Shown here piece by piece: positions 48,559 to 64,000 of a stretch of DNA of 64,000 nucleotides. Origin of the DNA: Chloropicon primus (taxonomy: Eukaryota); contig CP060754.1 of NCBI GenBank assembly GCA_023205875.1, forward strand, positions 310,001 to 374,000, in the 5' to 3' direction. Made by a program: the position numbers and the translations under genes. The notes under the pieces are model-generated. The model saw nothing but the letters and a program-made list of their open reading frames with translations, did not search any database and was not told the DNA's origin. Each line of letters starts with the position of its first letter. Positions within the stretch are counted from its first letter, which is position 1.

Positions 48559-49671
48559 ATGATCCTCGCGACGACGGCGATGCTGCTGCGCTGCGGGCAG
48601 TTGGCTCGGGGGGTCGCCTCCGCCGCGGGGCGGCCGCCCTGGAGCACTCGGGTCGCCCCGGTGCCGCCCAACACCCTGGTGGACGTCCTGGGCGCCCCGT
48701 CCGGGGACGTGAGCGTGGGGAACGGGGACCACGACGCGGTCGAGCTCTCCCTCGACGACGCCCCGGGCACCGCCCCGGATCCCAGGGTCTCGATCGGGCG
48801 CCAGGCCGGGGACGCGAGCGGGAAGCTCGGGCCCCTCGTCCGGTGCCGCTTCCCGCCGGCGTCCTCGCCAGGATCACCCCAGCAGCTGAGAGCCAGGATC
48901 CCGGAGCGGTACTGCTCGCTCAGGCTCCGCGCCCCCGGGGGAGGGGCCTCGGTCGAGGGCGTCGCGGAGGCGGGCCTGGACCTGAGGGCGAGGGACGCCG
49001 CGAGGGTCCGGTCGGTCAGGGGGAGCGTGGTATCGATCGAGAGCGAGCGGGGGGACGTGGTCGCGGACAGCGTGTCCGGGTCGGACCTGAGCCTCCGGGC
49101 GACCCGGGGCCTGGTGGAGGCCAAGAAGGTGGTGGGCTTGCTGGTGAGGGTCTCCGCGGCCAAGGGGGCGTCCCTGAGGTCCCTGTACGCCGAGGAGGCC
49201 TCGGTGGAGAGCGAGGGGGGCGACGTGGCCCTCGGGAACGCGGGCTGCCGGTCCCTCCTCGTGAACGCGGGCGGAGGGGCCGTCAAGGTGGACGGGGTCT
49301 CCGGCAACTTGAGGGTGGCGGGAGGCAAGGCCTGCAGCGTCAACCTGAGTAGGGACTGCAAGAAAGTGGAGATCCTCGGCGTGGAGGGGGAGGTCCGAGT
49401 CACCGCGGAGCCGGGAAGGAGGATCAAGTGCTCGATAGACGCCGAGGCGGTGGCCTTCGGGGAGGGGGTGACGCTCGACGAGGACGGGTCCTTCATCACG
49501 GTGGAGGGCGAGATGGGCGCGAGGGCCCCGAGGCTGGAGGGCGAGGACGGCGCCGAGGAGGCGGATAGGGAGCTGGCGGTGACCTCGCCGAAGGCCAAGG
49601 TCGTCGTCTCGGGCAGCTCGTGGCTGACGGACATCCTGAAGAAGAGGGGAGTTCCAACGAGAAAAGAGTGA
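48559..49671 (+). CDS. DUF4097/FAM185A-like beta-strand-repeat protein
   Basis: A presequence-like N-terminus and repeated S..G.V beta-solenoid-like units. Confidence 0.6.
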   Translation: MILATTAMLLRCGQLARGVASAAGRPPWSTRVAPVPPNTLVDVLGAPSGDVSVGNGDHDAVELSLDDAPGTAPDPRVSIGRQAGDASGKLGPLVRCRFPPASSPGSPQQLRARIPERYCSLRLRAPGGGASVEGVAEAGLDLRARDAARVRSVRGSVVSIESERGDVVADSVSGSDLSLRATRGLVEAKKVVGLLVRVSAAKGASLRSLYAEEASVESEGGDVALGNAGCRSLLVNAGGGAVKVDGVSGNLRVAGGKACSVNLSRDCKKVEILGVEGEVRVTAEPGRRIKCSIDAEAVAFGEGVTLDEDGSFITVEGEMGARAPRLEGEDGAEEADRELAVTSPKAKVVVSGSSWLTDILKKRGVPTRKE

Positions 49672-50997: not shown

Positions 50998-51491
50998 TCG
51001 AGCATGGTTCTCCCACCCTCGTCGTCCAATAATCCTGTTTCCTGCCTGCGCGTGCCTGCGTGCCTCTCTGTGTGTTGTGCCTCTCTCGCCCGTCCCTCGT
51101 CCCTGTTTCGAGCCACCGCCTACCCAAGCCGCGAGTGATCTGGTGATGGTACCAATTTTACGGGGACTCGTTTCCCAAAAATCCCAGTCCACAGTCCCTT
51201 CACCACCACATCCATGAAGGGACAAGAAAGGAAAGAGAGAGAGGAAGAGAGGAAGAGAGGAAAGAGAGAGGGAGAACCAGGCTGTTTCAAGACCAGCCTA
51301 CCACACCACCAAATCATCTCTCTCATCCCCCCGGAGCCAGGAGAGGATTCCTTTCCCTCTTCCTTTTTTCAAGTGTGGTTTGAAAATTCAGACATTTCCG
51401 ATGCTGGCGGATGTTCAAAACGAAGGGGGAGGGGAGCGACAGTCGACAGAGGTGGTCGTCAGGGAAACCGAACGAGGCAAGAGGGAGAGGT

Positions 51492-52115
51492 ATGACGGCG
51501 GAAGTGAAGGGGCAGCAGGACCTTGTGGACCTGATAGAGTGGAACTCTGTGGAGGTGCTGAACCAAAGCAGCGGTCACCCTTGGGTGAACGCCGTGAAGA
51601 AGGGGTACAGGGATGATCCGGGCCTCTACCTGGAGAGCGACTGCGACGAGCAGCTGCTGATCTACTTGCCTTTCACGCAGCAGGTGAAGCTCCATTCGCT
51701 TCTGATCCAGGGGCCAGAGAGGGAGACGGCGCCGTCAGCCATCAAGGTCTTCGTGAACCGAAGCTCCGTTGGGTTCGACGAGGCCGAGAGCGAGGTGGGC
51801 ACCCAAACCCTTGAGCTGGAGTCGGACGACGTGCTCGAAGGAAAGCCGGTGGCTCTCAAGTACGTCAAGTTTCAGAAAGTTCAGAGCGTCACCGTATTTA
51901 TCAGTTCGAACTTCGACGACGAGGATGGTGAGTAGTAGCAGTGCAGCGTTCGCTTCTTGTGGTTGTGTACGCCCCGAAGTTCGTCTCGTTCCTGACTTTC
52001 CCCCTTTCGCTCCTGTTTCCCAGTGACCAAACTCTCGAAGCTCGTCCTGTTCGGCACCCCCCAGTTCACCACTAACATGGGGGAGTGGGAGAAAGCCTGT
52101 AAGACCTGAGGCTAA
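51492..52115 (+). CDS. PITH-domain protein, candidate selenoprotein (Sec at 52107-52109); exons 51492-51927, 52024-52115
   Basis: PITH motifs LESDCDEQLLI..PF.Q.VKLHS, P..IK.F.N, LKYVKFQ.V.S and T.L.KL.LFG. The tail reads …GCC TGT AAG ACC TGA GGC TAA. The PITH call is firm; Sec decoding is inferred. Confidence 0.88.
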
Positions 52116-52165
52116 AGCTAGCCACCTGCAGCAGGTGGCTTGAAGCAAACACCCAGCGGCGGGGG

Positions 52166-52233
52166 GCGGGTGCCTCGATGACGGCCTTTGAACTCAAAGC
52201 AGACGCAAGCAGAGGCCAGAAAAACCAAACCGC
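52166..52233 (+). promoter_or_regulatory. Putative type II SECIS element
   Basis: ATGAC at 52178-52182; helix GGCCTTTG (52183-90) with CAGAGGCC (52210-17); AA bulge; CT/AG pairs; apical AAA (52196-98); mini-hairpin GC-AGAC-GC; 3' AGAA (52218-21) giving tandem G.A pairs. TGTAA poly(A) signal at 52261. Confidence 0.72.
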
Positions 52234-52364
52234 ATCAGTGTGCCCTCCCGCTCAACTCCTTGTAATATTATTATGCACAACTTGTGCACCTTCTCACACC
52301 AGCTAAAAAGAATATTTGATATTCATAAAAAGGATTGTAGTTGCTTATTGTTCAAGTGCTCTGT

Positions 52365-55300
52365 TTACAAATCCACGTGGTAGTTGTACAGGTTGTTGTG
52401 GAACTCGCCCTTTCCGTGGCCTCCAAAGAGAGCTATTTTATCAGTGCCAAAAGAAGCGCCCGCAGAGTCGTACCTCTGCAGCCCTGCCTCGTTGTCAGAA
52501 GGCAAAATCAAGGCCGTCCATGCTTTCTTTTCGGCGTCAAAGACGTAAGCGTCGCCCAACTCGGTGCCCATGTCCGCCCCGCCAGCCCCGCCAACGACGA
52601 CAATGTGGCTACCGAAAGCAACACCGACACCGCTGTGCCTCTCTGGAGGAAGGACCGATGGGAACGATATGGCATCGCTAGGGTCCATGACGTAACTCTC
52701 CCCGAAGTTAGTCCTGCGAGGACCAACCAAAGTCCATTTGGAGGACTTGAAGTCAAAGGACCACAGCTCCGTGGTCAGCTTCTCGCTGTCGTGCAAGTAT
52801 CCACCGTAGATGTACATCTTGTCCCCAGACACCACAGCTACGTGGCCAAACCGAGGACCCATGCCCTCAGAGGTTGGCATAACATTCCAAGTCTGAAGCT
52901 TGAAGTCGTACTTCCAGAAGTCACCCTGTGGGTCCGGCGATCTCCCTCCATAAATGTACATGCAGTCCTCGTGCACGACTGCGCTGTGATCGTATCGGCC
53001 CAAGGAAGAGCTCATGTTCTTCACGGGAATGAAGCTCCAGGCGTCCGCAGCAAAGTCGTACTTCCACAGATCGCTATAGAAGTAGGCTGACCTCTCTCCT
53101 CCGAAGATGTACATGCTGTCGCCATAGACCACGGAGGCGTGAGCTTGACGCTTTGGTGGGGGACTGCTGAGTCCAACCGACTCCCAACCGGCGTCAGGGC
53201 TGTACGAAACGGCGTCTTCTCCGCCCATCTGGACAGACACGGCTGGATCGTAGGAGGTTGCGATGATGGTATCATAGTAACCCACGGAACCCTTGGAGCT
53301 TCCAGCAGCGGTGGTGCCTCTGATGAAAATCTTGTCAAGATCTGTCGCTGCGGTTTCCGCGGTGAGCTGCCCATCCACATACATCTTCAGGTTGGTGTCA
53401 TCATCCACGAGGTAGAATTCGTTAAACCCGAATTTCCTGGACGAGGCGCCTGCCTTCCAAGGCGAGGAGTACGCGTACTTGCTTGGGTTGGACGAAGAGT
53501 AGACGCCAATGGCGCTTCCTGCGCTTGACTCGACCTTCGAACCACCGAGGGCAGTGCATGCCTCGAAGTCGGGGGACAAGAAGTGGATTCCCTCGCAAAG
53601 GGTGTCGAAGAAGTAGTACTTCAGCCTGAACTTCGTGAGGTTACTGGTAACCGTCTTGATCGACCCTCCGATCGTGTTCTCTGCGTCGACCTTCAAGGAC
53701 TTTGATCCAGTCACGGAAACGTCAGAGGAGGTTGTGAATCCAGAGATGTCACCGGCCGTGGCACAAGTATCGGTCTCCAGAGTGAATGTTTCCGGCAGGG
53801 TGTCTCCCTCAAAGTCTTCGAAATACTCGAACATGCTTGTGCTTGGAGTCGAGGACTTCTTGTGGTTTCCATAGTACATGTAGAATTCATCCTGAGCGGA
53901 CGTCAGAGATACGTAAATAGTCGTGCTTGTCGTGCCGCAGCCGGAGACACCACTTGGAGCCATGAAGTACTGAAGCTCGCTGCCTTCCTTGGAGTGGAAG
54001 AGAACGTCGCTGCAATCGGGCTTGAGCTTTCCGTCTTGGATCATTCCGTGCGTGTCCAGGTCAAATTCAACGATGTAATCGGTCGTCTTGCCTGTCACCT
54101 TGATGGTTCTCCTGTATTTCCAGTCATCGTCGGCATTCGTGCTCTTCCACTTCCACGTGTCACCGGCGTAACTACCCTGGTGGGTTGCGCCACCAAAGAC
54201 GTAAAGATCTCCGTTAGAAGGACGGGACTCCATGCTGTGCTCAAAACGCGTCACAGGCTTGTTGCCGTACGTGATAGCTTCCCTCAAAGCTGGCTTGGCC
54301 ACATTTATGACGGTAGGGAAGCCCTCCATGATAGCTTCGTCGACGTACAAGGCGAGGTAGTAAGATCCCGCAGAAGGATAGGTAACCGTGAACTTGTAGG
54401 TTTGCCCGGCTTCCTTCTCCACAGACACCTTTGCTGCATATGCCTGTCCATTCAAATCAGTGGCACTGTACTGGAAGCTGGAGGAGTAGTCCTTCGTTCC
54501 CACCATTGGGTTCCCGAAGGCATCCTTGGGCTCCACAACAATGGTCGTCGGAACTCCAGCCTCGGCCGCAGTCAGGTGTCCAGAGACAGCAGACTCCTTG
54601 GCCGAGATTGCGCCTGGAGCAATCGCGATGGTCGAGTCCACAAAGGTCGAGGCCCCTGAAGTGATCTTCAACTGGCCATCACCGGCATGTGAAGGAGTGT
54701 AAGAGAACATGTAAACGTCTCCAAACCTACCGCAAGGCTCGCCGTCGCCAGAGAAAGTACTGGTCACTGGCAGAGCAGCTGGCGTTGTCACGGCAATGTG
54801 TCCACACTCGGCTGCCACGGACGTGTCCAAGTAACCAGCGAACGAGATTTGGGAGGTCAGCGCAAGGTCTGCTGGAGGAGCGTATCCTGGGTATCCGCAT
54901 ACATCGCTGACGGTCGCGGCAAACACCTTGGTCTCTCCAGCCACTGCAGAACCCATGCTCCATGCGGAGCAATCCCCGCTAGTCTTGAGAGCTGCAGGCA
55001 ACTTGCCTTGAATGCTTGCGCTGTAGGGGCACTCTGGGGTGTCCAGCTTGAACTTTCCAACATTAGTCGGCGCAGTGTCAGTGGACCAACCCGATGTGGA
55101 GGACGAGGAGCAAACCGCATTCACGGCAAGGGAGCGGGCCCTTCCCTTGCAGATGTTCCCGAAGACTGCCGTAGACGCGGTCACGGCGCACGATTCCTTG
55201 TTCAAGCAAGCGGCCTCAACAACAGAGTTAGATGTCGAGGAGACGCAATCAGCCTGGTAGTTGCCGCAGCCTCCTTCGTTCTCACCAAAGTTGGCGTACA

Positions 55301-58300
55301 AGATCTCAGTGATCTTTGTCCCAGTAGGGCACTTGAGGGAGATCGCCTTGTTCTCGGTCGCCTTGTCGCAAACGAGACCAATAACGCCATCGTTGTTGTG
55401 CTTGGAGGAGTCCTTCGTGAGGTGACTGTAACCTTCGTTGAACCTGTAGTAGGCGACGAGGTGGTCATCCACAGCCTTGACGTTCTGAGGGCAGAGCGAA
55501 GTACCCTGAGGGTCAGCAAGGACAGCGGAGTGGATCATAACGTTGTCAATGAGTCCCTTGAAGTACTTTCCAACATGCACGGCCTGAGAGGAACGCTTCT
55601 GGTACTTTGGCTCCTCATCGTCGAAGCTTTTCGTGGCAAGCAAGGTTCCGTCCATGAAGAGCTGGAACTTTGTGCCGTCGTACGTCACACTCAGATGAGC
55701 CCAGGAAGAGGCAGAAAGTGTTACCTCAGACTTTGCGATCCTGAACGTCTCAGAGCCAACGTAAACACCTGCTTCGAGGTTGTACTTCTCTCCGCTGATC
55801 GCGAGAAGAGCGAACCAATACCCCTTTCCGGAGTGTTCCGACTGCTTTGACACAATGTACTCCTTTGCGTAACCTGACGTTCCCGTCTTCTTGACGAAAG
55901 CAGAGATGGTGAAGGAATCGGTGAGGTCCAACTCGTCAGAGTCCGCAAAGGTCGCGTACGTCGAGTCTCCCGAAAGAGACAGCGAAGACCCCTCCTTCAC
56001 GTCAACGCAGAACTTGCAGTCGCCTCCAGTCGCAGGCTTGCCGAGCGAACAGTACTCCGTGGAAGACTGAGATCCCCCCTTGCAGGTGTATCCGCCGTAC
56101 TGGCATACGGAAAAGTTCGAGGCGGTGACCCCCATCCTGTACTGGCCCGTCACCGGAGCGTTGTACGTCACAGAGTAAGTGCCGTCCATGTTATCCGTCG
56201 TGGATCCAGCAAAAGGCACTGGGCCCTCGAAGCTGACTTGTGGCTCGTCCAAATCACACCCGGAAGTTCTCAGGTTTCCGTACTTGTCGACAGTTTGGAG
56301 AGTATAGGTAACAGGGACGCCCGCAAAGGATGTCTCAGTTTCCTTGATTCCAAGAAGATCAGTGTCGTCAAAGATGTAAGACGCAGGGCCCGTGATGAAT
56401 GGCTGCACGTAGGTCTTGTACCCGCCCGACTGGATGTCAACACCGTTCAGCTTCGCGTAAACCTTGTAGTATCCCGCATCCTGCAAAGTGATGTTCGCCA
56501 GGTAGGATCCGTCGCCAAGATCAGTGATTCCGTCACCGACGTTCAGAATCTTCATTTCCGTGTGGACATGGAGGGGTCCGATAATCTCGATGGTGAATCC
56601 GTCGCCTCCAGACTTCATCTTCGAGCCGCACTTATCGTGTGCCGCAATCGTGACAAGGCCACACTGTCCAGCGATCATTCTAGTCAATGCGGTCCCGATA
56701 ACCTTAGTTGTCGCACTCGAGGCTTTGTAGTGCCCACAGACGTTTGGGACCCAAGCCGGCTTCACGAGGGTAGCATCCAAGAAATGGTCGGAAGCGACGT
56801 TGTCGGCGTAAGTACCCGTGCCCTCGTTCAGGGAAAGATACACGCTAAGATCAGAGTCGGTCCTTGGCAAGCACTCGGTGATGGGCTTCATCTCTGCGGT
56901 GGTCGCAACGGCCTTGTTGTAGACAGCGAAATCGTACAAAAGTCCACTGAATCCGCCACCCACAACGAAGTCACCGTCGGTTGGCACAATCATGGCCTCC
57001 CTGCTGAAGACTTTTTGCTCCGTGAGGACACCGTTCACAAAGAAGGACATCGTCTTTCCGTCATAGGAAACGGCAACGTGTTGCCACTCGTCCTTGAGAA
57101 CGAGAGATTTCAAGGACTTGTGCTCGCGGTAGATGCAAACCCCACTACAAGCACAGTCTGTTGACGGCTCCACGACGTTGAAGCTTGCGGACAAGCTTCC
57201 GTCGTTCACGCTGAAGTCAATCGCGTCGTCCTGGGAGGAGATGGACAACAGGCCAGACACCTTGTCGGGCTTGATCCAAGCTCCAATGGTGATTGGTCCT
57301 GTTCCTGCCCTGAGATTTTCTGACGGAATGACCTGCCTTGGCACGGCACTGCCACTGGAAGAGTATTCCAACTTGAGAGAGGCGTCTCCTGACTTGTCGG
57401 TGTACAAGATCTCAATCGCGTGCCAGCCCGCAGACAAGTCCATGGTGCCACTCAAGGCTCTCGCAGTGCCAGCATAGTCAGGGTCCTGGATAACAACGCT
57501 GTCAGCGACAGAGAGCGTGACACCATCGTCAGCCGTGACGTAGAAGGTGTAAAGAGAATCTACGGGGGCGTAAACGTAGCCAGAAGCGTTGAAGGACCAG
57601 ATCTCGTCATTGAAGTTGTTGGTTCCCCAGGTCAAATCGATCTTGCTGGCGATGTAGTTGTAATCCTTCGCACCGCCGTAGACTTGTGCAAGCAGGCCCT
57701 TTGCTCCCGCGGGAGTACCGCCTGAAGAGAAAGGAACGGTGACGGTAGTCTCCGAAGCTTCACCGAGGGACAGAGCATAGCCATCGGTATCGTAGAGCAT
57801 GACCACTTCGGTCTCACTGAGCTCTCTGTCGTAGATCCAAACGTCGTCCACGACAATCTTTTGACGCCCGCTGATCTTTCCGGTGTCAAAGAATTCCGTG
57901 ATCACGTTAGAGTAAGCGGAAGCACCGTTCACAAGGACGCCATTCACGTAAGTCTTTTCCTTGGTTCCTGCGACAAACTTCCATGCGTTTGGAACAACTT
58001 CAGCGTGTGACTTTCCAGACTCGGCAAGGCAGCCAGGGTACCCGATGGTGTCCTCGAACACCTCCTGGGCAGAGCAAGTCGTGGGGAAATCCTCTTCCCC
58101 GAACATGACCCACATGGCCAAGAATTTAGAAGACGCGGAGCAGGCCTGCATGTCGAGGGAGGCGCTGTTAGAGAGCTCGTACGCGGCCTTTTCGATCCCA
58201 TTCCTGTTGTTTGTCTGCGTGACGTTGCCGCTGGTAGCGGCGTCGTTTCCGTTGCCAGACACATCCTTCAAGCCACCCGCGAGTGGGAACCAGCAGGTGA

Positions 58301-61300
58301 GACCACTATGGACGTCGTCCACGCTGAGCGTCTTGGAGAACTTGTTCTCGTAGGTGTAGGACGTTGCGTAGGGCTGGGCAGGCGACGAGCACTTGTAGTC
58401 ATCGTGCTGCTGGACCGTCAAAGGCTTCGTGACGTACTGGCCGTGGGAGATCGTGTCGTTTCCACTTGAGGTGGCCAGAGTCACTTCAATGAGCATGTCG
58501 CTCACGTACTTGCTGATCACGTTCTGCTCGGTTGATGACTCAAAGTACACCTTAGTCTTTTCCGCGAAGTTCACACCCTCAATGGTGATCGTGTTGCCAC
58601 CCCTGAGAGGACCAACCGCGGCACCGGCGTGAGATCCCATGCCAGAGCTGACCTTCGTCACCGCCGATGGGAACCAAGGCAAGCCAGCGTAAGCGTACGA
58701 GGCGTGGGTGTCGTCCGAGCCCACGAAAGAGTGGGCAGTCGTGTCATAGGTCGTCTCCGACGAAGCAGAGAAGGTTCCCTTGACGCTTCCTACAACATCT
58801 GTCGCAAACTTGGCGGATGCCGGGTTGTTGAAGTTGAAGTGAGACACCAGGCTTGGAACCGCATTGAACGTATCATAGCACTTCACAGATGCCATCTCAG
58901 TCTCCGTCAACGCCCTGTCGTAAACACGGACTTCGTCCATGAGTCCGTCAAAGTACTCCTTAGGGTACATGAGGTCGTCCATGTCCATTCCCATCACAAA
59001 GAAGCCAGTGCCATCAGACTTTGGCCTGCAAGTGGTAGAGAAAGAAGCTTTTTTGACCCCGTCCAGATACAGGGAACCCTCGTTGGTGCCCGAGATGGTG
59101 ACCATGACATGGTACCACTTGTTCACGTCCACTTCGAGGTTCTGCCCCTGAGCATCCTTCATGGCGACGTCATAGATACAGTCGTCATAGTAGTAGAAGA
59201 CACCCTTGGCCCCGTCGCTCTTGAACTGCAGCAGACCCGCGTTCAAAACGGAGGAGGGCACCTTGGATCCAAAGGACAGGAGTCCCTGAATTCCAACCTT
59301 GGCCCTTGGATACACCCAAGCACCGAAAGAATACTCGGTTCCCGTCAACTTCTCTGCCACGGCATTGGCCTCGACGTAGTCCTTGGTCAGGTAACGGTCA
59401 GAGCATCGGACCGACGCAGACAGCCACTTGCCCTCCGAAGGACAAGGGTCCCCGAAAACGGAGGTCTTCGCAGGGACAGAGCACGAAGTCTTCCCGAGGC
59501 AATAGTTTTCAACGATGTCCTGGGTAAAGTGAGGGGCTTGGTCGGTATCGGAGTGGCAACCCGCGGCAGTCTCGTAAGTCGAGAAGTCAAACTCGTTGGT
59601 GGATGTGGTTCCATCGCAGTTCGTAACGCCCTCGTTGTTTCCCTTGGTTGGCCTTCCGAAGCTAGCGAACTCAACCATGTCAATTCTCAAACCAGATGGG
59701 CAAGTCATGGTCAGGGTCTGGTCCTCGTCCGCGCTTCCGCCGACGACCTTGGAGGACTTCACGACATCCCCCTCGAAATCCAGAACCGAGTCCCTGTAAG
59801 TGATCTCTGCACTGCCGAGCGCTGTTGGGTTTCCAGCCTGCATCGTGGCCATGCCAGGCATATCCGTGGAGGGAAGAGGACAGGTCACAGACGTTCCGCT
59901 AACGTAAGTAGCGGCCGTGGTGACTGTGGTCGTCCCCTTGCTGCTCGGCATGGCAAAGACGCATTGCAAGGACTTTGTCTTTGCGACATTGAAGCCAGTC
60001 ACGGTAGCGATCTTCGAGTCGCTCGTCAACGCGCTTTCCTTCACGTCCACCTCCTTCAGCGTCAGTGGCTCCCAAGGTGCCTCGATGAGGGACACCTTCG
60101 CGCCCTTGATGTAAGCCGCCTTGAAACTGTTTGCCTTGGAAGCCTCTGGAACACTGGTGACAGCAGGCTCCACGGTATACTTTCCGCTCGAATCCCCGGT
60201 ATTGGCGTTGAATCTGTAGTAAGCAAAGACGTCACTAAGAGCTTGCCCGGTCAACCTGGATGTCCAGTCGCTGCTGTAGTTCGGTGTCGCAAAGATACGG
60301 ACTTCGTCCACAAACCCGTTGAAGGATCTGCCCAAGGTGACCGCGCTGCCCTCGCACTCCATACCACCGACGAAAAACCTTCCGCCGGCAACGGGAAGAC
60401 CAGGAACTCTGATGTCTCCTGCCAGCTTGGCTCCGTCAACGGCAAGCGAGGCCTTCATTGTGATTCCCTTTGCCAAGCCCGTGTCAGGATAGACGAGATC
60501 AGAGGCGACCTCCGTCACCATTTCACGTGGCTCCACAGAAATCTCAAAGTAGTGCCACTCGTCGACCGTCACCGTGGTGCCAACCTTGGTCACGTTGCTG
60601 AAGTCAAGGTCACCGTACGGGGTGTCTGGCAAGTCACTCTGGAGGTACACTTGTCCATTCTGGTACATGGCGCAGATCTGGCTCTTGGTCGAGGTCGTCA
60701 AGTCGCAAGCTTCCGCAAAGCAAGCAAGGACTCCCTCGGAACCTGTCATGAGCGATGCTGGATAGAACCAAGCTCCAAAGGTAACGCCCGTGTTGTTCAG
60801 GCCCGAGGAGATGTTGTCGATGTAAACGTAGTCGTTCGAGGCAGAGAAGCTCATAGCAGCTTCCTTTGCTTCCACAGGAGTCGGGACTGCCAAGAAGGAC
60901 GGGGTGATGCTGCAAGATGGCAGAGCATGGTTAGAAACTGCGAGCGAGTACTCTGCTGGGTTGGCAAAACCAGTTGACTTGCACGCAATCTCGTCGTAGT
61001 TCTTGAAGACCGCGTCGATCACCTCATCGTCCTGTTTGCATTTGAGGAAAGCTGACGGGGCAAAACCAAATCCGTAGACGGTGACATCGTCGTAGCCATC
61101 AAAAGGAATGTTCTGGTCCCTCAAATAGTCGTAATACTCCCCGCACGTGCTTGGGGAAGGCAGGGGGTAAGAGAAGGCGGAGTTCGGTCCGAAACCAAGG
61201 TTTTGGGACTGGAACTGCAGCCTCGCATTCGTATCGTACCCAATTGTCGTCGAAGCACACGTGCTCGTGATTGGCCTCTTGGCAGAGAAGGACGGAGCAA

Positions 61301-64000
61301 GGAACGGCGTGGTTGTGAACTTCAACGTCGGGGTTCCAGTCACGGGACCGTCACTTCCAACGGTGTTGGAGACGACCGCAACATTGTTTCCTACGAGGGA
61401 TTCGTCGTTGAACTCGTAGTACACGATCTTGTCCTTGTTCGCCTCCTCCCCTCCGCCAACCGCAGAATTGAAACCGTAACCAGAGTCAGCCATTCCATCT
61501 GCGTTTCTGTTTACGGAGTACTTGCCCCACATGTAAAATTCGATTTCGCACGTCGTGAGGACCTTGCTCCATACAGAGAACTCGTCGTACATGGCAGTCA
61601 TCGTACCCTTGGCCCCAAGGAGAATATCCGTAGTGGTTGCAAGGTCCACGCCCGCGGCGGTGCCCTCGACGTTGCCATCGATCGTCAGCACAGCATCTCC
61701 ACCGCTCGTGAAAGAGAGGGAGACGTAGGCCCACGAGCCTACTGACAAGGCCTTGTTGCTCGTGATGAAAGTCGCTCCAACGCTGCTTATCAGCTTCAAA
61801 TGACCTGAAGAGGAGAGCTTCACCTCGAAGAGCTTGCCAGATTCACCAGACATGGCATAATTATCGTAGAAACCAAATACGCTTGGCTCCGTGCTGAATG
61901 TGACGTCCTCTGGATGCACCCAGAAGCCGACCGTGCCACCCGAAGTGAGCTTGTTGGCCACCTCGGCAATCACACTGTCCTTGGAGGTGTCCAAACTCAA
62001 CGCAATTTCCATCTGGTACAGAGGAACGTACAGCGATTCCATGGCGCCGCCGTTGGAGACCTTCACAAGGCTCGCGGAAGCTTCTTTCGAGCCAGGAGCA
62101 ACGCACTTGATGGTCTCTTCATCCTCGAACGTGGCTCTCACCACGTGATCTCCGATGTGGCACTTGAGATACTGCGATTTAGCGAAGTTGTCGCCCTTCA
62201 CCGTGACTTCTGTTCCTCCGTTGACGTGGACCACCCCCGGCGATGCCTTGTGTGGGCACGCAGCAATAGTAGGCGATGGCAGGAAGGCGAACTGAATGCT
62301 TCCCGACGTGCAGTCGGTCTGGCACGCTTGTCCGTTGTGACTTCCCGTCTCATCACCCACAGTTTGACCTTTGGCATCAAAGGCAAGGGTGGAGATGTCC
62401 TGCTTGCTGGCGGCCTTGTGCGCCGCGTAATCGTTGAACTTGTAGTACGCCACAAGGCCAGTCTCCGAGCTCGCGGCCAGGGGCGTGAACACCTTCGTGG
62501 ACAGCTCCGTGGCACTGAGGCCCCTGGAATACACGAAGACTTCGTTGATGTACCCAGTGAAGGGGTTCGACGAGGTGTACGAGCCCATGAAGAAGAAGCC
62601 AGTAGCTCCAGTGTTCGAGGCCAGCACAGTCCCCACGCTCAAGGCTTTGCCGGTGCTCGACGTGCCCAAGTTCAAAGCCGTGTTCCTGTGGTAGTTTCTG
62701 GAAGTAGAGGAGAAAGACAACTTCTCCGCGCCGTCCAAGTAGAGGGAAACCGTTCCGTCCGTCTCAATGGTGAAGGCGGCGTGGTGCCAGGTGTTTGTGC
62801 AGAAAATTGGATCCGTAGACAAGTCAATGCCCTGGGCGTCATCCACGTACTGCAAAGAGTAGAAGGACCCGCCGTCCTGCACGGTGTGCCCGTCATTGTA
62901 AACCTCCGGGGTGAACTTCACCCAGTTCAACTGATGGACAATGTGCTTGGTTCCCCCCGAATCCTCGTAGCCGGCGGTAAGCAATGGCATGCTCGCAGCC
63001 GCGTCGTCCTTTGGCAAGAACCACGCGCCCATGGTGACACCGCAGTCCTTGTCAAGAGAGTTGACCACCGCGGGAACGTTGACGTGGGAACCTCCACTCA
63101 TCGAGAGGACGCTGTCCGTGACAACGATCTTGTAGCACCTCTCATCTATGGTTGCCGGCACACCCAAGGTCATCGCATAGTCTATCGCCGTTGTCTTGGC
63201 ATTCTTTGCCATCCAGCACAGCTCGTAGGTGCACTCCTGGCCACTCTTTGGGGTCCAACTGAACGTCTTTCTGAAAGGATCGCCGTTGATGGCGGTCGAG
63301 TCAGTCAGGGTGGCTCCTTCAGGAAGGCTTCCCTGCGAGAGGTAGATGCTGATAGGACCGAATCCTCCGGCCTGCTTGGCATCCAAATCGAACTCAACCT
63401 TGTTCCCCGGCGAGACGTAGAAAGTCGTTCCATTCGCAGGCGTGGGCCCAGCAAAGTTGGTCATTCCCGTCAAGCCGGTTCGGTCGTCTCTCCAGTAGAC
63501 AGCGTCGTCTGTGGAGAGCATGATATCGATGCAACGGAACTTGGAAGTCACGTAATTGTCGTAGGCGTAGAAGCACACCGAAAGCTTGTCCGGCCTTGGA
63601 TCCGTCGTCTGAGTATCCGTGTTCTTCAAGCCCCAAGTGAATTGACGCTTGACGGACTTTCCATCAGACCCGACGCGCTCGTGGCTGCCAAGAACCATGT
63701 TGTACGGGCAAGTCGTCTCCGAAGTCGCCTCGGCAGCCGTGCAAGCCGCATTCGTCGTTCCGGGGACCGTGAAGCTGTCTCCCGTGTAAAGGCTTGATCC
63801 ATAGATGAAGAGCTCGGTGCAGTCATCGTTGTCCTTAGCAACAAGGTTGAAAGACACCTCTTGTCCCTTCTTTGCCTGAACCACAGCGTTGTTGTTCGCG
63901 TTCACGTTGCAGGGAGTCTTGCCGTCCAATCCGTTCGTTCCGCACTCTGCCTCGTCCACCCAGACAGGGGCAGTGTTATACTTGCAGGAAGAGATCGCGG
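52365..64000 (-). CDS. Giant (>3,860 aa) mosaic lectin-like protein: LamG/ConA-like repeats, IPT/TIG, two galactose/rhamnose-binding lectin domains, PA14, filamin/Ig-like, DUF2341-like, Kelch; 5' end outside window
   Basis: Uninterrupted ORF open to the window edge. It has repeated W.H….LY.DG…F.G..DEV..Y..AL (LamG), CP.G..I….ASFG…FGDPC (Gal-lectin), YTFYVTADDG…GWH.I…Y (PA14), D..DG.Y.V.Y (filamin) and R..H….MY.FGG…DLW.YD (Kelch). Confidence 0.9.
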   Translation of the reverse strand, partial: AISSCKYNTAPVWVDEAECGTNGLDGKTPCNVNANNNAVVQAKKGQEVSFNLVAKDNDDCTELFIYGSSLYTGDSFTVPGTTNAACTAAEATSETTCPYNMVLGSHERVGSDGKSVKRQFTWGLKNTDTQTTDPRPDKLSVCFYAYDNYVTSKFRCIDIMLSTDDAVYWRDDRTGLTGMTNFAGPTPANGTTFYVSPGNKVEFDLDAKQAGGFGPISIYLSQGSLPEGATLTDSTAINGDPFRKTFSWTPKSGQECTYELCWMAKNAKTTAIDYAMTLGVPATIDERCYKIVVTDSVLSMSGGSHVNVPAVVNSLDKDCGVTMGAWFLPKDDAAASMPLLTAGYEDSGGTKHIVHQLNWVKFTPEVYNDGHTVQDGGSFYSLQYVDDAQGIDLSTDPIFCTNTWHHAAFTIETDGTVSLYLDGAEKLSFSSTSRNYHRNTALNLGTSSTGKALSVGTVLASNTGATGFFFMGSYTSSNPFTGYINEVFVYSRGLSATELSTKVFTPLAASSETGLVAYYKFNDYAAHKAASKQDISTLAFDAKGQTVGDETGSHNGQACQTDCTSGSIQFAFLPSPTIAACPHKASPGVVHVNGGTEVTVKGDNFAKSQYLKCHIGDHVVRATFEDEETIKCVAPGSKEASASLVKVSNGGAMESLYVPLYQMEIALSLDTSKDSVIAEVANKLTSGGTVGFWVHPEDVTFSTEPSVFGFYDNYAMSGESGKLFEVKLSSSGHLKLISSVGATFITSNKALSVGSWAYVSLSFTSGGDAVLTIDGNVEGTAAGVDLATTTDILLGAKGTMTAMYDEFSVWSKVLTTCEIEFYMWGKYSVNRNADGMADSGYGFNSAVGGGEEANKDKIVYYEFNDESLVGNNVAVVSNTVGSDGPVTGTPTLKFTTTPFLAPSFSAKRPITSTCASTTIGYDTNARLQFQSQNLGFGPNSAFSYPLPSPSTCGEYYDYLRDQNIPFDGYDDVTVYGFGFAPSAFLKCKQDDEVIDAVFKNYDEIACKSTGFANPAEYSLAVSNHALPSCSITPSFLAVPTPVEAKEAAMSFSASNDYVYIDNISSGLNNTGVTFGAWFYPASLMTGSEGVLACFAEACDLTTSTKSQICAMYQNGQVYLQSDLPDTPYGDLDFSNVTKVGTTVTVDEWHYFEISVEPREMVTEVASDLVYPDTGLAKGITMKASLAVDGAKLAGDIRVPGLPVAGGRFFVGGMECEGSAVTLGRSFNGFVDEVRIFATPNYSSDWTSRLTGQALSDVFAYYRFNANTGDSSGKYTVEPAVTSVPEASKANSFKAAYIKGAKVSLIEAPWEPLTLKEVDVKESALTSDSKIATVTGFNVAKTKSLQCVFAMPSSKGTTTVTTAATYVSGTSVTCPLPSTDMPGMATMQAGNPTALGSAEITYRDSVLDFEGDVVKSSKVVGGSADEDQTLTMTCPSGLRIDMVEFASFGRPTKGNNEGVTNCDGTTSTNEFDFSTYETAAGCHSDTDQAPHFTQDIVENYCLGKTSCSVPAKTSVFGDPCPSEGKWLSASVRCSDRYLTKDYVEANAVAEKLTGTEYSFGAWVYPRAKVGIQGLLSFGSKVPSSVLNAGLLQFKSDGAKGVFYYYDDCIYDVAMKDAQGQNLEVDVNKWYHVMVTISGTNEGSLYLDGVKKASFSTTCRPKSDGTGFFVMGMDMDDLMYPKEYFDGLMDEVRVYDRALTETEMASVKCYDTFNAVPSLVSHFNFNNPASAKFATDVVGSVKGTFSASSETTYDTTAHSFVGSDDTHASYAYAGLPWFPSAVTKVSSGMGSHAGAAVGPLRGGNTITIEGVNFAEKTKVYFESSTEQNVISKYVSDMLIEVTLATSSGNDTISHGQYVTKPLTVQQHDDYKCSSPAQPYATSYTYENKFSKTLSVDDVHSGLTCWFPLAGGLKDVSGNGNDAATSGNVTQTNNRNGIEKAAYELSNSASLDMQACSASSKFLAMWVMFGEEDFPTTCSAQEVFEDTIGYPGCLAESGKSHAEVVPNAWKFVAGTKEKTYVNGVLVNGASAYSNVITEFFDTGKISGRQKIVVDDVWIYDRELSETEVVMLYDTDGYALSLGEASETTVTVPFSSGGTPAGAKGLLAQVYGGAKDYNYIASKIDLTWGTNNFNDEIWSFNASGYVYAPVDSLYTFYVTADDGVTLSVADSVVIQDPDYAGTARALSGTMDLSAGWHAIEILYTDKSGDASLKLEYSSSGSAVPRQVIPSENLRAGTGPITIGAWIKPDKVSGLLSISSQDDAIDFSVNDGSLSASFNVVEPSTDCACSGVCIYREHKSLKSLVLKDEWQHVAVSYDGKTMSFFVNGVLTEQKVFSREAMIVPTDGDFVVGGGFSGLLYDFAVYNKAVATTAEMKPITECLPRTDSDLSVYLSLNEGTGTYADNVASDHFLDATLVKPAWVPNVCGHYKASSATTKVIGTALTRMIAGQCGLVTIAAHDKCGSKMKSGGDGFTIEIIGPLHVHTEMKILNVGDGITDLGDGSYLANITLQDAGYYKVYAKLNGVDIQSGGYKTYVQPFITGPASYIFDDTDLLGIKETETSFAGVPVTYTLQTVDKYGNLRTSGCDLDEPQVSFEGPVPFAGSTTDNMDGTYSVTYNAPVTGQYRMGVTASNFSVCQYGGYTCKGGSQSSTEYCSLGKPATGGDCKFCVDVKEGSSLSLSGDSTYATFADSDELDLTDSFTISAFVKKTGTSGYAKEYIVSKQSEHSGKGYWFALLAISGEKYNLEAGVYVGSETFRIAKSEVTLSASSWAHLSVTYDGTKFQLFMDGTLLATKSFDDEEPKYQKRSSQAVHVGKYFKGLIDNVMIHSAVLADPQGTSLCPQNVKAVDDHLVAYYRFNEGYSHLTKDSSKHNNDGVIGLVCDKATENKAISLKCPTGTKITEILYANFGENEGGCGNYQADCVSSTSNSVVEAACLNKESCAVTASTAVFGNICKGRARSLAVNAVCSSSSTSGWSTDTAPTNVGKFKLDTPECPYSASIQGKLPAALKTSGDCSAWSMGSAVAGETKVFAATVSDVCGYPGYAPPADLALTSQISFAGYLDTSVAAECGHIAVTTPAALPVTSTFSGDGEPCGRFGDVYMFSYTPSHAGDGQLKITSGASTFVDSTIAIAPGAISAKESAVSGHLTAAEAGVPTTIVVEPKDAFGNPMVGTKDYSSSFQYSATDLNGQAYAAKVSVEKEAGQTYKFTVTYPSAGSYYLALYVDEAIMEGFPTVINVAKPALREAITYGNKPVTRFEHSMESRPSNGDLYVFGGATHQGSYAGDTWKWKSTNADDDWKYRRTIKVTGKTTDYIVEFDLDTHGMIQDGKLKPDCSDVLFHSKEGSELQYFMAPSGVSGCGTTSTTIYVSLTSAQDEFYMYYGNHKKSSTPSTSMFEYFEDFEGDTLPETFTLETDTCATAGDISGFTTSSDVSVTGSKSLKVDAENTIGGSIKTVTSNLTKFRLKYYFFDTLCEGIHFLSPDFEACTALGGSKVESSAGSAIGVYSSSNPSKYAYSSPWKAGASSRKFGFNEFYLVDDDTNLKMYVDGQLTAETAATDLDKIFIRGTTAAGSSKGSVGYYDTIIATSYDPAVSVQMGGEDAVSYSPDAGWESVGLSSPPPKRQAHASVVYGDSMYIFGGERSAYFYSDLWKYDFAADAWSFIPVKNMSSSLGRYDHSAVVHEDCMYIYGGRSPDPQGDFWKYDFKLQTWNVMPTSEGMGPRFGHVAVVSGDKMYIYGGYLHDSEKLTTELWSFDFKSSKWTLVGPRRTNFGESYVMDPSDAISFPSVLPPERHSGVGVAFGSHIVVVGGAGGADMGTELGDAYVFDAEKKAWTALILPSDNEAGLQRYDSAGASFGTDKIALFGGHGKGEFHNNLYNYHVDL

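What the first reader, a model, noticed from the sequence alone, without database searches (positions are those of the whole stretch)
51492..52265. Candidate new selenoprotein: PITH-domain protein with C-terminal CxxU-G and a SECIS in its 3' UTR
Seen in sequence: after removing intron 51928-52023 the PITH ORF reads …TTNMGEWEKA-C-K-T-TGA-G-TAA. The TGA lies three codons after a Cys and is followed by one Gly codon and a TAA stop. About 70 nt downstream, before the TGTAA signal at 52261, is a SECIS-like hairpin: AUGA (52178), an 8-bp helix GGCCUUUG/CAGAGGCC plus 2 bp after an AA bulge, apical AAA, a mini-helix and a 3' GA. Established knowledge: chlorophyte algae make selenoproteins; penultimate Sec followed by Gly occurs in thioredoxin reductase; CxxU is a redox motif; in TXNL1 the PITH domain is fused to a thioredoxin and binds the proteasome. 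Inference: this stand-alone PITH protein carries its own Cys/Sec redox tail and may be a Sec-dependent proteasome-associated oxidoreductase. I do not know PITH as a described selenoprotein family, and standard annotation would stop it at the TGA. Caveats: the AUGA-to-AAA spacing is 14 nt (needs the bulge) and helix I is weak.
Basis: partly seen in the sequence, partly recalled or inferred. Interest (0 to 1): 0.92.

Follow-up and report, generated by a model that had tools for sequence, protein, structure and literature searches.

The report
Algal PITH selenoprotein with CxxU-G tail
The apparent TGA stop of this small green-algal gene for a predicted proteasome-docking (PITH) protein most likely encodes selenocysteine, as the codon, the glycine and stop after it and an RNA hairpin are kept in a second species, but PITH selenoproteins are already listed for algae, so it is a new member of a known family.

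Summary
Observation confirmed. The intron 51928-52023 is spliced in RNA contigs of 4 of 4 runs laid, and the spliced contigs carry both the TGA and the hairpin. The ORF up to the TGA is identical to a Chloropicon primus protein annotated as ending at ...ACKT. A syntenic orthologue (85% identical, four-fold sites only 40%) keeps TGA-Gly-stop with synonymous changes and has its own, better SECIS at another distance. 25 of 27 Chloropicon-type proteins end at ACKT. eEFSec and PSTK are annotated in the species. Sec recoding is about 90% likely, untested at the bench. The novelty claim fails: Jiang et al. 2020 list a 'PITH selenoprotein' among 42 algal families, and this scan noted PITH selenoproteins twice before on other DNA. 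I could not see which Sec motif the published family has. What stays open is the mechanism. TXNL1's proteasome-contact residues are kept, and the Cys/Sec pair sits on the tail that in human TXNL1 binds the Rpn11 zinc through His289. My best guess is a redox-switchable selenolate ligand for Rpn11 (inferred, 0.45), ahead of a tail oxidoreductase (0.33).

The parts
51492..51927 (+). Coding exon 1, PITH domain residues 1-145
   Evidence: Pfam PF06201 E 3.4e-46; RNA contigs begin at 51426-51472; spliced ORF up to the TGA equals P0002, 173 aa
51928..52023 (+). 96-nt GT..AG intron
   Evidence: skipped in contigs of 4 of 4 runs; absent at the matching place in orthologue L001
52024..52115 (+). Coding exon 2 to the TAA stop, ending TNMGEWEKACKT-U-G
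   Evidence: last codons compared with L001
52098..52100 (+). Cys171 codon, first Cys of the CxxU motif
   Evidence: kept in 25 of 27 Chloropicon-type proteins fetched
52107..52109 (+). In-frame TGA, predicted Sec174
   Evidence: TGA kept in L001, followed by GGT TAG
52110..52115 (+). Gly175 codon and true stop TAA
   Evidence: GGC TAA in window, GGT TAG in L001
52178..52221 (+). Predicted type II SECIS, core to core: AUGA, 8-bp helix II, apical AAA, mini-helix, 3' GA
   Evidence: counterpart at L001:877-922 with 1 two-sided and 1 one-sided change among 6 alignable pairs
52166..52233 (+). Possible weak helix I (GCGG 52166-69 with CCGC 52230-33) closing the SECIS
   Evidence: a different pairing appears, so uncertain
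52261..52265 (+). TGTAA, likely polyadenylation signal (green-algal UGUAA signal recalled from knowledge)
   Evidence: spliced contigs end at 52251, 52280 and 52341; L001 has TGTAA at 952, likewise just after its SECIS

Best explanation
This spliced, transcribed Chloropicon gene most likely makes a 175-residue selenoprotein, a lone PITH domain ending Cys-Lys-Thr-Sec-Gly, that is predicted to dock on the proteasome cap and would use its Cys/Sec tail as a redox-switchable ligand for the catalytic zinc of the deubiquitinase Rpn11. Steps: (1) shown: splicing, the TGA-Gly-stop and the hairpin on one transcript, and their conservation in an orthologue; (2) inferred, about 0.9: the SECIS recodes UGA to Sec; (3) inferred, about 0.75: the domain binds Rpn2/Rpn10 and lays M164/W167 in the Rpn11 groove as TXNL1 does; (4) inferred, weakest: reduced Sec174 (or Cys171) takes the role of TXNL1 His289 on the zinc, and oxidation to a Cys-Sec bond releases it. 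The confidence figure is for the whole chain.
For: Splice and single-transcript cover. Orthologue L001 is syntenic with the same convergent neighbour, 147 of 172 residues identical, four-fold sites 27 of 68 identical, yet keeps TGA GGN TAR; the chance of keeping GG and TA by drift is about 0.026. Its UTR is otherwise unalignable, but it has a SECIS with 13-nt spacing, 156 nt after the TGA instead of 68. 25 of 27 Chloropicon-type proteins down to 63% identity end exactly at ACKT; the other two leave the frame or stop early. eEFSec, seryl-tRNA(Sec) kinase and selenoprotein W1 are annotated for the species in a supplement of PMC6731263. Top fold match is proteasome-bound TXNL1, E 5e-17, TM 0.84. 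TXNL1 contacts E136, D162, R234, M275, F278 map to E21, D52, K123, M164, W167 (alignment). His289 binds the Rpn11 zinc. Among 124 representatives with a short tail, 38 have His in the last three residues (His is 1.8% of the domain body), 6 end in Cys and 3 in Cxx. Short plant- and fungal-type tails carry His 5-7 residues after the F278-equivalent; Sec174 is 7 after. A preprint reports that Cys-bearing peptides inhibit Rpn11 without disulfide bonding (PMC13648738, passages).
Against: No protein-level evidence of Se. DNA behind the stop was seen for only one orthologue; for the other ACKT-ending proteins the stop codon is unknown. The window's SECIS has 14-nt spacing and a non-consensus base before GA; covariation on two sequences does not beat shuffles (260 of 500). 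The tail is 3 residues shorter than TXNL1's, and Sec174 aligns with TXNL1 position 285, four short of His289, so reach to the zinc is unproven. 74 of those 124 tails have neither His near the end nor Cys, so a zinc ligand is not universal in the family. No CxxC-G homologue was seen. The predicted tail has pLDDT about 50. tRNA-Sec, SBP2, SecS and SPS were not checked.
Confidence: 0.45

Rival explanations
1. Same selenoprotein, but the CxxU-G tail is a catalytic redox arm: it swings near the substrate entrance and reduces disulfides or oxidised thiols, standing in for the thioredoxin domain that TXNL1 has and this protein lacks.
For: CxxU and a penultimate Sec before Gly are redox motifs in SelW/SelT/SelH-type proteins and thioredoxin reductase (recalled). 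Cys171 is kept at i-3 in all 25 ACKT-ending proteins. This gene has no thioredoxin domain: contigs start at 51426-51472 and the next gene upstream is divergent. TXNL1's thioredoxin domain is modelled near the substrate entrance.
Against: No thioredoxin fold supports the motif. Land-plant PITH proteins stand alone with no Cys in the tail, so loss of the thioredoxin domain does not need a redox tail. Many homologous tails end in His, which is not redox-active.
Confidence: 0.33
2. The TGA is the ordinary stop; the protein ends at ...ACKT, and Gly-stop and hairpin are coincidence or a relic.
For: TGA is the commonest stop of long open frames in the window, 29 of 52 (crude, includes non-coding frames). 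All database models end there. The window's hairpin fails the 11-13 spacing and has no Rfam match.
Against: GGN-TAR kept with changes only at synonymous positions against 40% neutral identity, plus a separate SECIS hit in the orthologue's diverged UTR (2 of 5000 shuffles). Gene callers stop at any TGA, so the models carry no weight.
Confidence: 0.08
3. Selenoprotein whose exposed Cys/Sec tail is mainly a degron or sensor: it sets the protein's own ubiquitin-independent turnover at Rpn11 in response to selenium supply, oxidants or metalloids.
For: TXNL1 is degraded on arsenite or auranofin in a way that needs proteasome binding and its catalytic Cys; exposed Cys act as Rpn11-dependent degrons in a preprint.
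Against: Nothing in this locus tests turnover; it does not explain why Sec rather than Cys is kept.
Confidence: 0.1

Closest known systems
Algal 'PITH selenoprotein' family (Jiang et al. 2020, The algal selenoproteomes, PMC7539508)
   Same: PITH domain without a thioredoxin-like domain, predicted Sec, algae (passages).
   Different: Chloropicon is not mentioned in the main text. The family's Sec motif and species list lie in figures, a supplement and a website that I could not see. Mamiellophyceae homologues end in ...LKKC, which suggests a C-U type there, against CxxU-G here; their stop codon was not seen.
Human TXNL1 (TRP32) PITH domain and tail on the 26S proteasome (PDB 9E8G, 9E8O, 9BW4; PMC12700817, PMC12700798)
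   Same: Same fold, E 6e-36 by sequence; five named contact residues kept or conservatively changed.
   Different: No N-terminal thioredoxin domain; tail 3 residues shorter; ends C-K-T-U-G, not GKKGESH; no His.
Plant stand-alone PITH protein At3g04780 (PDB 1XOY)
   Same: Best solved sequence match, E 1.6e-46; lone PITH domain of like length; streptophyte-type, Mamiellophyceae and Chloropicon proteins group in the tree, but only weakly (SH-aLRT 79, quick tree).
   Different: Plant tails have no Cys or Sec; some end in His, others in acidic or amide residues.
Thioredoxin reductase C-terminal Gly-Cys-Sec-Gly arm (recalled, no call)
   Same: Penultimate Sec followed by Gly on a flexible tail.
   Different: Adjacent Cys-Sec there, CxxU here; unrelated fold; no flavin domain.

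Membership tests
Eukaryotic selenoprotein gene | In-frame TGA conserved in an orthologue, with coding-like conservation after it | tested here: met
   L001 keeps TGA GGN TAR at 40% four-fold identity; one orthologue only
Eukaryotic selenoprotein gene | SECIS in the 3' UTR of the same mRNA, at least 51-111 nt from the UGA | tested here: met
   68 nt in the window, 156 nt in L001; on spliced contigs; minimum distance from PMC3753652; the window's value is inside that minimal range
Eukaryotic selenoprotein gene | SECIS core UGAN/KGAW, unpaired apical AA, helix lengths in range | tested here: inconclusive
   GA/GA and AA present in both; K position is A and C; spacing 14 (window) and 13 (L001); SECISearch3 not available
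Eukaryotic selenoprotein gene | Covarying SECIS stem | tested here: inconclusive
   6 of 6 pairs kept, 1 two-sided and 1 one-sided change, better than all six slid controls on cells paired, but 260 of 500 shuffles reach it with two sequences
Eukaryotic selenoprotein gene | Cys-for-Sec homologues | tested here: not met
   No CxxC-G tail among the tails printed; nearest are Paulinella CSC and CSCDH and Entamoeba CCCCC. This is a common supporting criterion, not a strict one: PMC7539508 lists families found almost only in the Sec form
Eukaryotic selenoprotein gene | Sec machinery in the genome | tested here: inconclusive
   eEFSec and PSTK by annotation in a published supplement for the species; no genome held; tRNA-Sec, SBP2, SecS, SPS not checked
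Eukaryotic selenoprotein gene | Selenium incorporated in the protein | not testable with these tools
   needs 75Se or MS
Algal PITH selenoprotein (PMC7539508) | PITH domain, no Trx-like domain, Sec codon | tested here: met
Algal PITH selenoprotein (PMC7539508) | Same Sec position and motif as the published members | not testable with these tools
   supplement too large to read; figures and database not available
TXNL1 / TRP32 | N-terminal thioredoxin domain with CxxC | tested here: not met
   transcript starts 20-66 nt before the ATG; Pfam finds PITH only
TXNL1 / TRP32 | Proteasome-contact residues E136, D162, R234, M275, F278 | tested here: met
   E21, D52, K123, M164, W167
TXNL1 / TRP32 | Terminal His that binds the Rpn11 zinc | tested here: not met
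   tail ends CKTUG, four residues short of the His289 position at Sec

The most novel reading that the evidence does not exclude
Across eukaryotes the PITH tail carries an interchangeable ligand for the Rpn11 zinc (His in animals, fungi and many plants; Cys/Sec in Chloropicon, Mamiellophyceae and some protists). This protein would then be a selenoprotein whose Sec is a reversible, redox-gated ligand for the metal of another enzyme, tying selenium supply and redox state directly to proteasomal deubiquitination.
Probability: 0.3. Interest if true: 0.75.

Novelty: new member of a known kind. Interest (0 to 1): 0.4.

Why it matters
As annotation it is modest: it corrects the C-terminus of a gene in every Chloropicon record seen and extends a predicted, little-described selenoprotein family to the Chloropicophyceae. 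As mechanism it could matter more. The 2025 TXNL1-proteasome structures put this exact tail in the Rpn11 active site, so a family that has had no proposed function in the text I could read gets a concrete, testable one. A natural His versus Cys/Sec series would also help test what PITH tails do at Rpn11, which is open even for human TXNL1.

Tried and rejected
Rfam at E<=10 gave no SECIS model match, only a chance lncRNA hit. No whole genome was held, so tRNA-Sec, SBP2, SecS and SPS could not be searched; ARAGORN found 0 tRNAs in the window. More orthologue DNA was sought without success: second read-laying, 1 of 4 runs laid and only on the 5' end; viral contigs, three scans, no PITH relative; prokaryotic genomes, 5 pattern matches, all non-homologous. 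L002 is a distant PITH with another tail and no SECIS hit; L003-L005 are weak 28-35 residue matches. The tree (67 selected rows, last 10 residues removed, longer rows cut to their C-terminal part; quick method, careful search unfinished) cannot say whether Cys/Sec tails arose once or several times: Cys-ending rows need 6 changes, but starred branches force only 1. Alternative donors at 51932, 51935 and 51941 break the frame. The upstream in-frame ATG at 51411 lies before the start of all contigs laid. The convergent gene's transcript does not explain the cover of the hairpin: its TGTAA is at 52365-69 and a separate contig starts at 52342. No complex was folded: the Sec-Gly end cannot be supplied, no Rpn11 of this organism was on hand, and a pass would follow from solved TXNL1 structures. 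ESM Atlas returned only plain PITH clusters. Gobler 2013 and 2011 (Aureococcus selenoproteome) were not held; they may be the first source of the family. PMC6627142 has no mention of PITH; PMC7678280 and the main text of PMC12301720 gave nothing relevant. I did not search for longer, thioredoxin-fused paralogues in Chloropicon and make no claim about them.

Full report
Observation. Removing 51928-52023 gives a PITH frame ending TTNMGEWEKACKT-TGA-G-TAA; three other donors break it. Contigs from 4 of 4 runs laid (three studies; two runs on record as RNA, two guessed) skip exactly this intron, show no other letters, and run through the TGA and the hairpin to 52251, 52280, 52341, or on into the neighbour. 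The convergent neighbour has its own TGTAA at 52365-69 and, in one run, a separate contig from 52342, so the hairpin belongs to the PITH mRNA. Contigs are unstranded and give no true ends, so this is good but not final.

Identity. Pfam PITH, E 3e-46. The spliced ORF up to the TGA is letter for letter P0002, a 173-aa Chloropicon primus protein annotated as 'galactose-binding domain-containing'. I take the species name from that record and did not determine strain or assembly.

Is the TGA a Sec codon? One orthologous locus was obtained, L001, among 5 loci from the metagenome scan. It is 170 of 172 identical to the C. roscoffensis protein and 147 of 172 to ours, and has the same convergent neighbour. 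Four-fold sites are 27 of 68 identical and the first 60 nt after the stop 19 of 60. Yet the end reads TGC AAG ACA TGA GGT TAG against TGT AAG ACC TGA GGC TAA: changes fall only at synonymous positions, on both sides of the TGA. Keeping GG and TA by drift has a chance near 0.026. L001 has its own hairpin at 877: AUGA, 10-bp helix, AA after 13 nt, mini-helix, GA, -18 kcal/mol, 156 nt from the TGA instead of 68. At the protein level 25 of 27 Chloropicon-type sequences fetched, including C. laureae at 63% identity, end at ACKT; the other two are a fragment and a model that leaves the frame early. These are redundant (cluster 2 alone gave 15 of its 39 members), and their stop codons were not seen.

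Is the hairpin more than chance? A SECIS-like pattern (AUGA, 11-14 nt, AA, 18-27 nt, GA, at least 7 pairs, at most -9 kcal/mol) hits once in the 128 kb of both window strands, here; once in L001; and in 0 of 18 other loci. Shuffles: 1 of 5000 and 2 of 5000. The 14 was allowed after seeing the element; with 11-13 the window's hairpin fails and L001's passes. The base before the 3' GA is A and C, not the K of the UGAN/KGAW consensus (PMC3753652, passages). Folding z-scores are -2.2 and -2.4 core to core and about 0 with flanks. Six alignable pairs are all kept, with one two-sided and one one-sided change, but two sequences cannot beat the shuffle control (260 of 500). Rfam finds nothing.

Machinery. 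No genome was held. A supplementary table of PMC6731263 names eEFSec, seryl-tRNA(Sec) kinase and selenoprotein W1 for C. primus (files 13-20 of 20 were not searched; of the paper itself I saw only the listing). A supplement of PMC12301720 names selenoprotein W1. tRNA-Sec, SBP2, SecS and SPS remain unchecked. Overall I put Sec recoding at about 0.9.

Is it new? No. [quoted passage not shown] It gives no motif or function in the text and does not mention Chloropicon. Searches for PITH together with selenoprotein terms listed no other paper that links the two by title, abstract start or term counts; the library lacks most subscription papers, and the two Aureococcus papers were not held. This scan noted PITH selenoprotein candidates before on other DNA: e1-7273124 (CxxU-G) and e1-7142310 (C-U-G, with the same Rpn11 idea). 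I had read the Jiang passage and written down the Rpn11 idea before that look-up; I did not check their sequences.

Family survey. Of 150 representatives at 50% identity, 138 align to the conserved Gly156; 14 with long tails were set aside; of the other 124, 38 have His in the last three residues, 6 end in Cys, 3 in Cxx, 3 have another Cys in the last ten, and 74 have neither. Mamiellophyceae proteins end in LKKC, a likely C-U form, but I could not get their DNA. No CxxC-G form was seen. The quick tree holds Chloropicon together (99) and cannot resolve one or several origins of Cys/Sec tails.

Mechanism. The model is a PITH jelly-roll, mean pLDDT 88, with a low-confidence tail; its best match is proteasome-bound TXNL1. 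In PMC12700817 (passages and section 7) and PMC12700798 (passages) TXNL1 contacts Rpn2 and Rpn10 through R234, E136 and D162, lays M275 and F278 in the Rpn11 groove, and binds the catalytic zinc with terminal His289. By the alignment these map to K123, E21, D52, M164 and W167. Docking is therefore likely (inferred). The tail is 3 residues shorter and Sec174 aligns with position 285. Short plant- and fungal-type tails place His 5-7 residues after the F278-equivalent, where Sec174 is 7 after, but whether such short tails reach the zinc is not known from anything I read. A preprint reports that Cys peptides inhibit Rpn11 without disulfide bonding (PMC13648738, passages). Selenolate is a strong soft-metal ligand and CxxU can close to a Cys-Sec ring (recalled). 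I therefore favour a redox-switchable zinc ligand (0.45 for the whole chain) over a catalytic redox arm (0.33), a degron or sensor (0.1) and a plain stop (0.08). None of these roles was tested.

Verdict. A real feature, very probably a selenoprotein gene mis-annotated as stopping at its TGA; a new member, possibly a CxxU-G variant, of a family already predicted in algae. Interest 0.4, carried mostly by the testable Rpn11 hypothesis.

Noticed in passing
window 52365-63698 (-): Single 3777-aa open frame convergent with the PITH gene; its C-terminal part is conserved next to the orthologue in L001 (67% over 306 aa). By eye a mosaic of lectin-, Ig- and Kelch-like repeats (no domain search run). 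Its stop codon overlaps a TGTAA signal at 52365-69.
   Followed up: partly
window 52098-52102: The Cys171 and Lys172 codons spell TGTAA inside the coding region, just before the Sec codon; use of it would give a transcript without the SECIS. Not kept in L001, and no contig ends there.
   Followed up: partly
proteins P0260, P0265 (Mantoniella), P0131, P0283, P0271, P0098, P0326: A large set of PITH proteins ends at ...LKKC, LKSC or LKPC, as expected if a Cys-TGA (C-U) form is cut at the TGA; likely the published family. DNA not obtained.
   Followed up: partly
proteins P0195, P0300, P0313: Unnamed proteins far from Chloropicon in the tree end in WKPCKS or WKPVKC: a second lineage with a possible CxxU tail.
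   Followed up: partly
proteins P0157, P0288, P0233: Paulinella PITH tails end AGCSC and AGCSCDH; an Entamoeba invadens PITH has five adjacent Cys in the tail.
   Followed up: no
L001:620-645 versus window 51928-52023: The intron is absent in the orthologous genomic locus: an intron gain or loss between the two Chloropicon lineages.
   Followed up: partly
window 52159-52167 and L001 about 769-777: A GGGGGGCGG run lies 42-46 nt after the stop in both UTRs, the only 9-nt match besides the SECIS 5' core; may be chance in G-rich sequence.
   Followed up: no
window 48559-49671 (+): 370-aa ORF with a weak DUF4097 match just under the Pfam cut-off.
   Followed up: no
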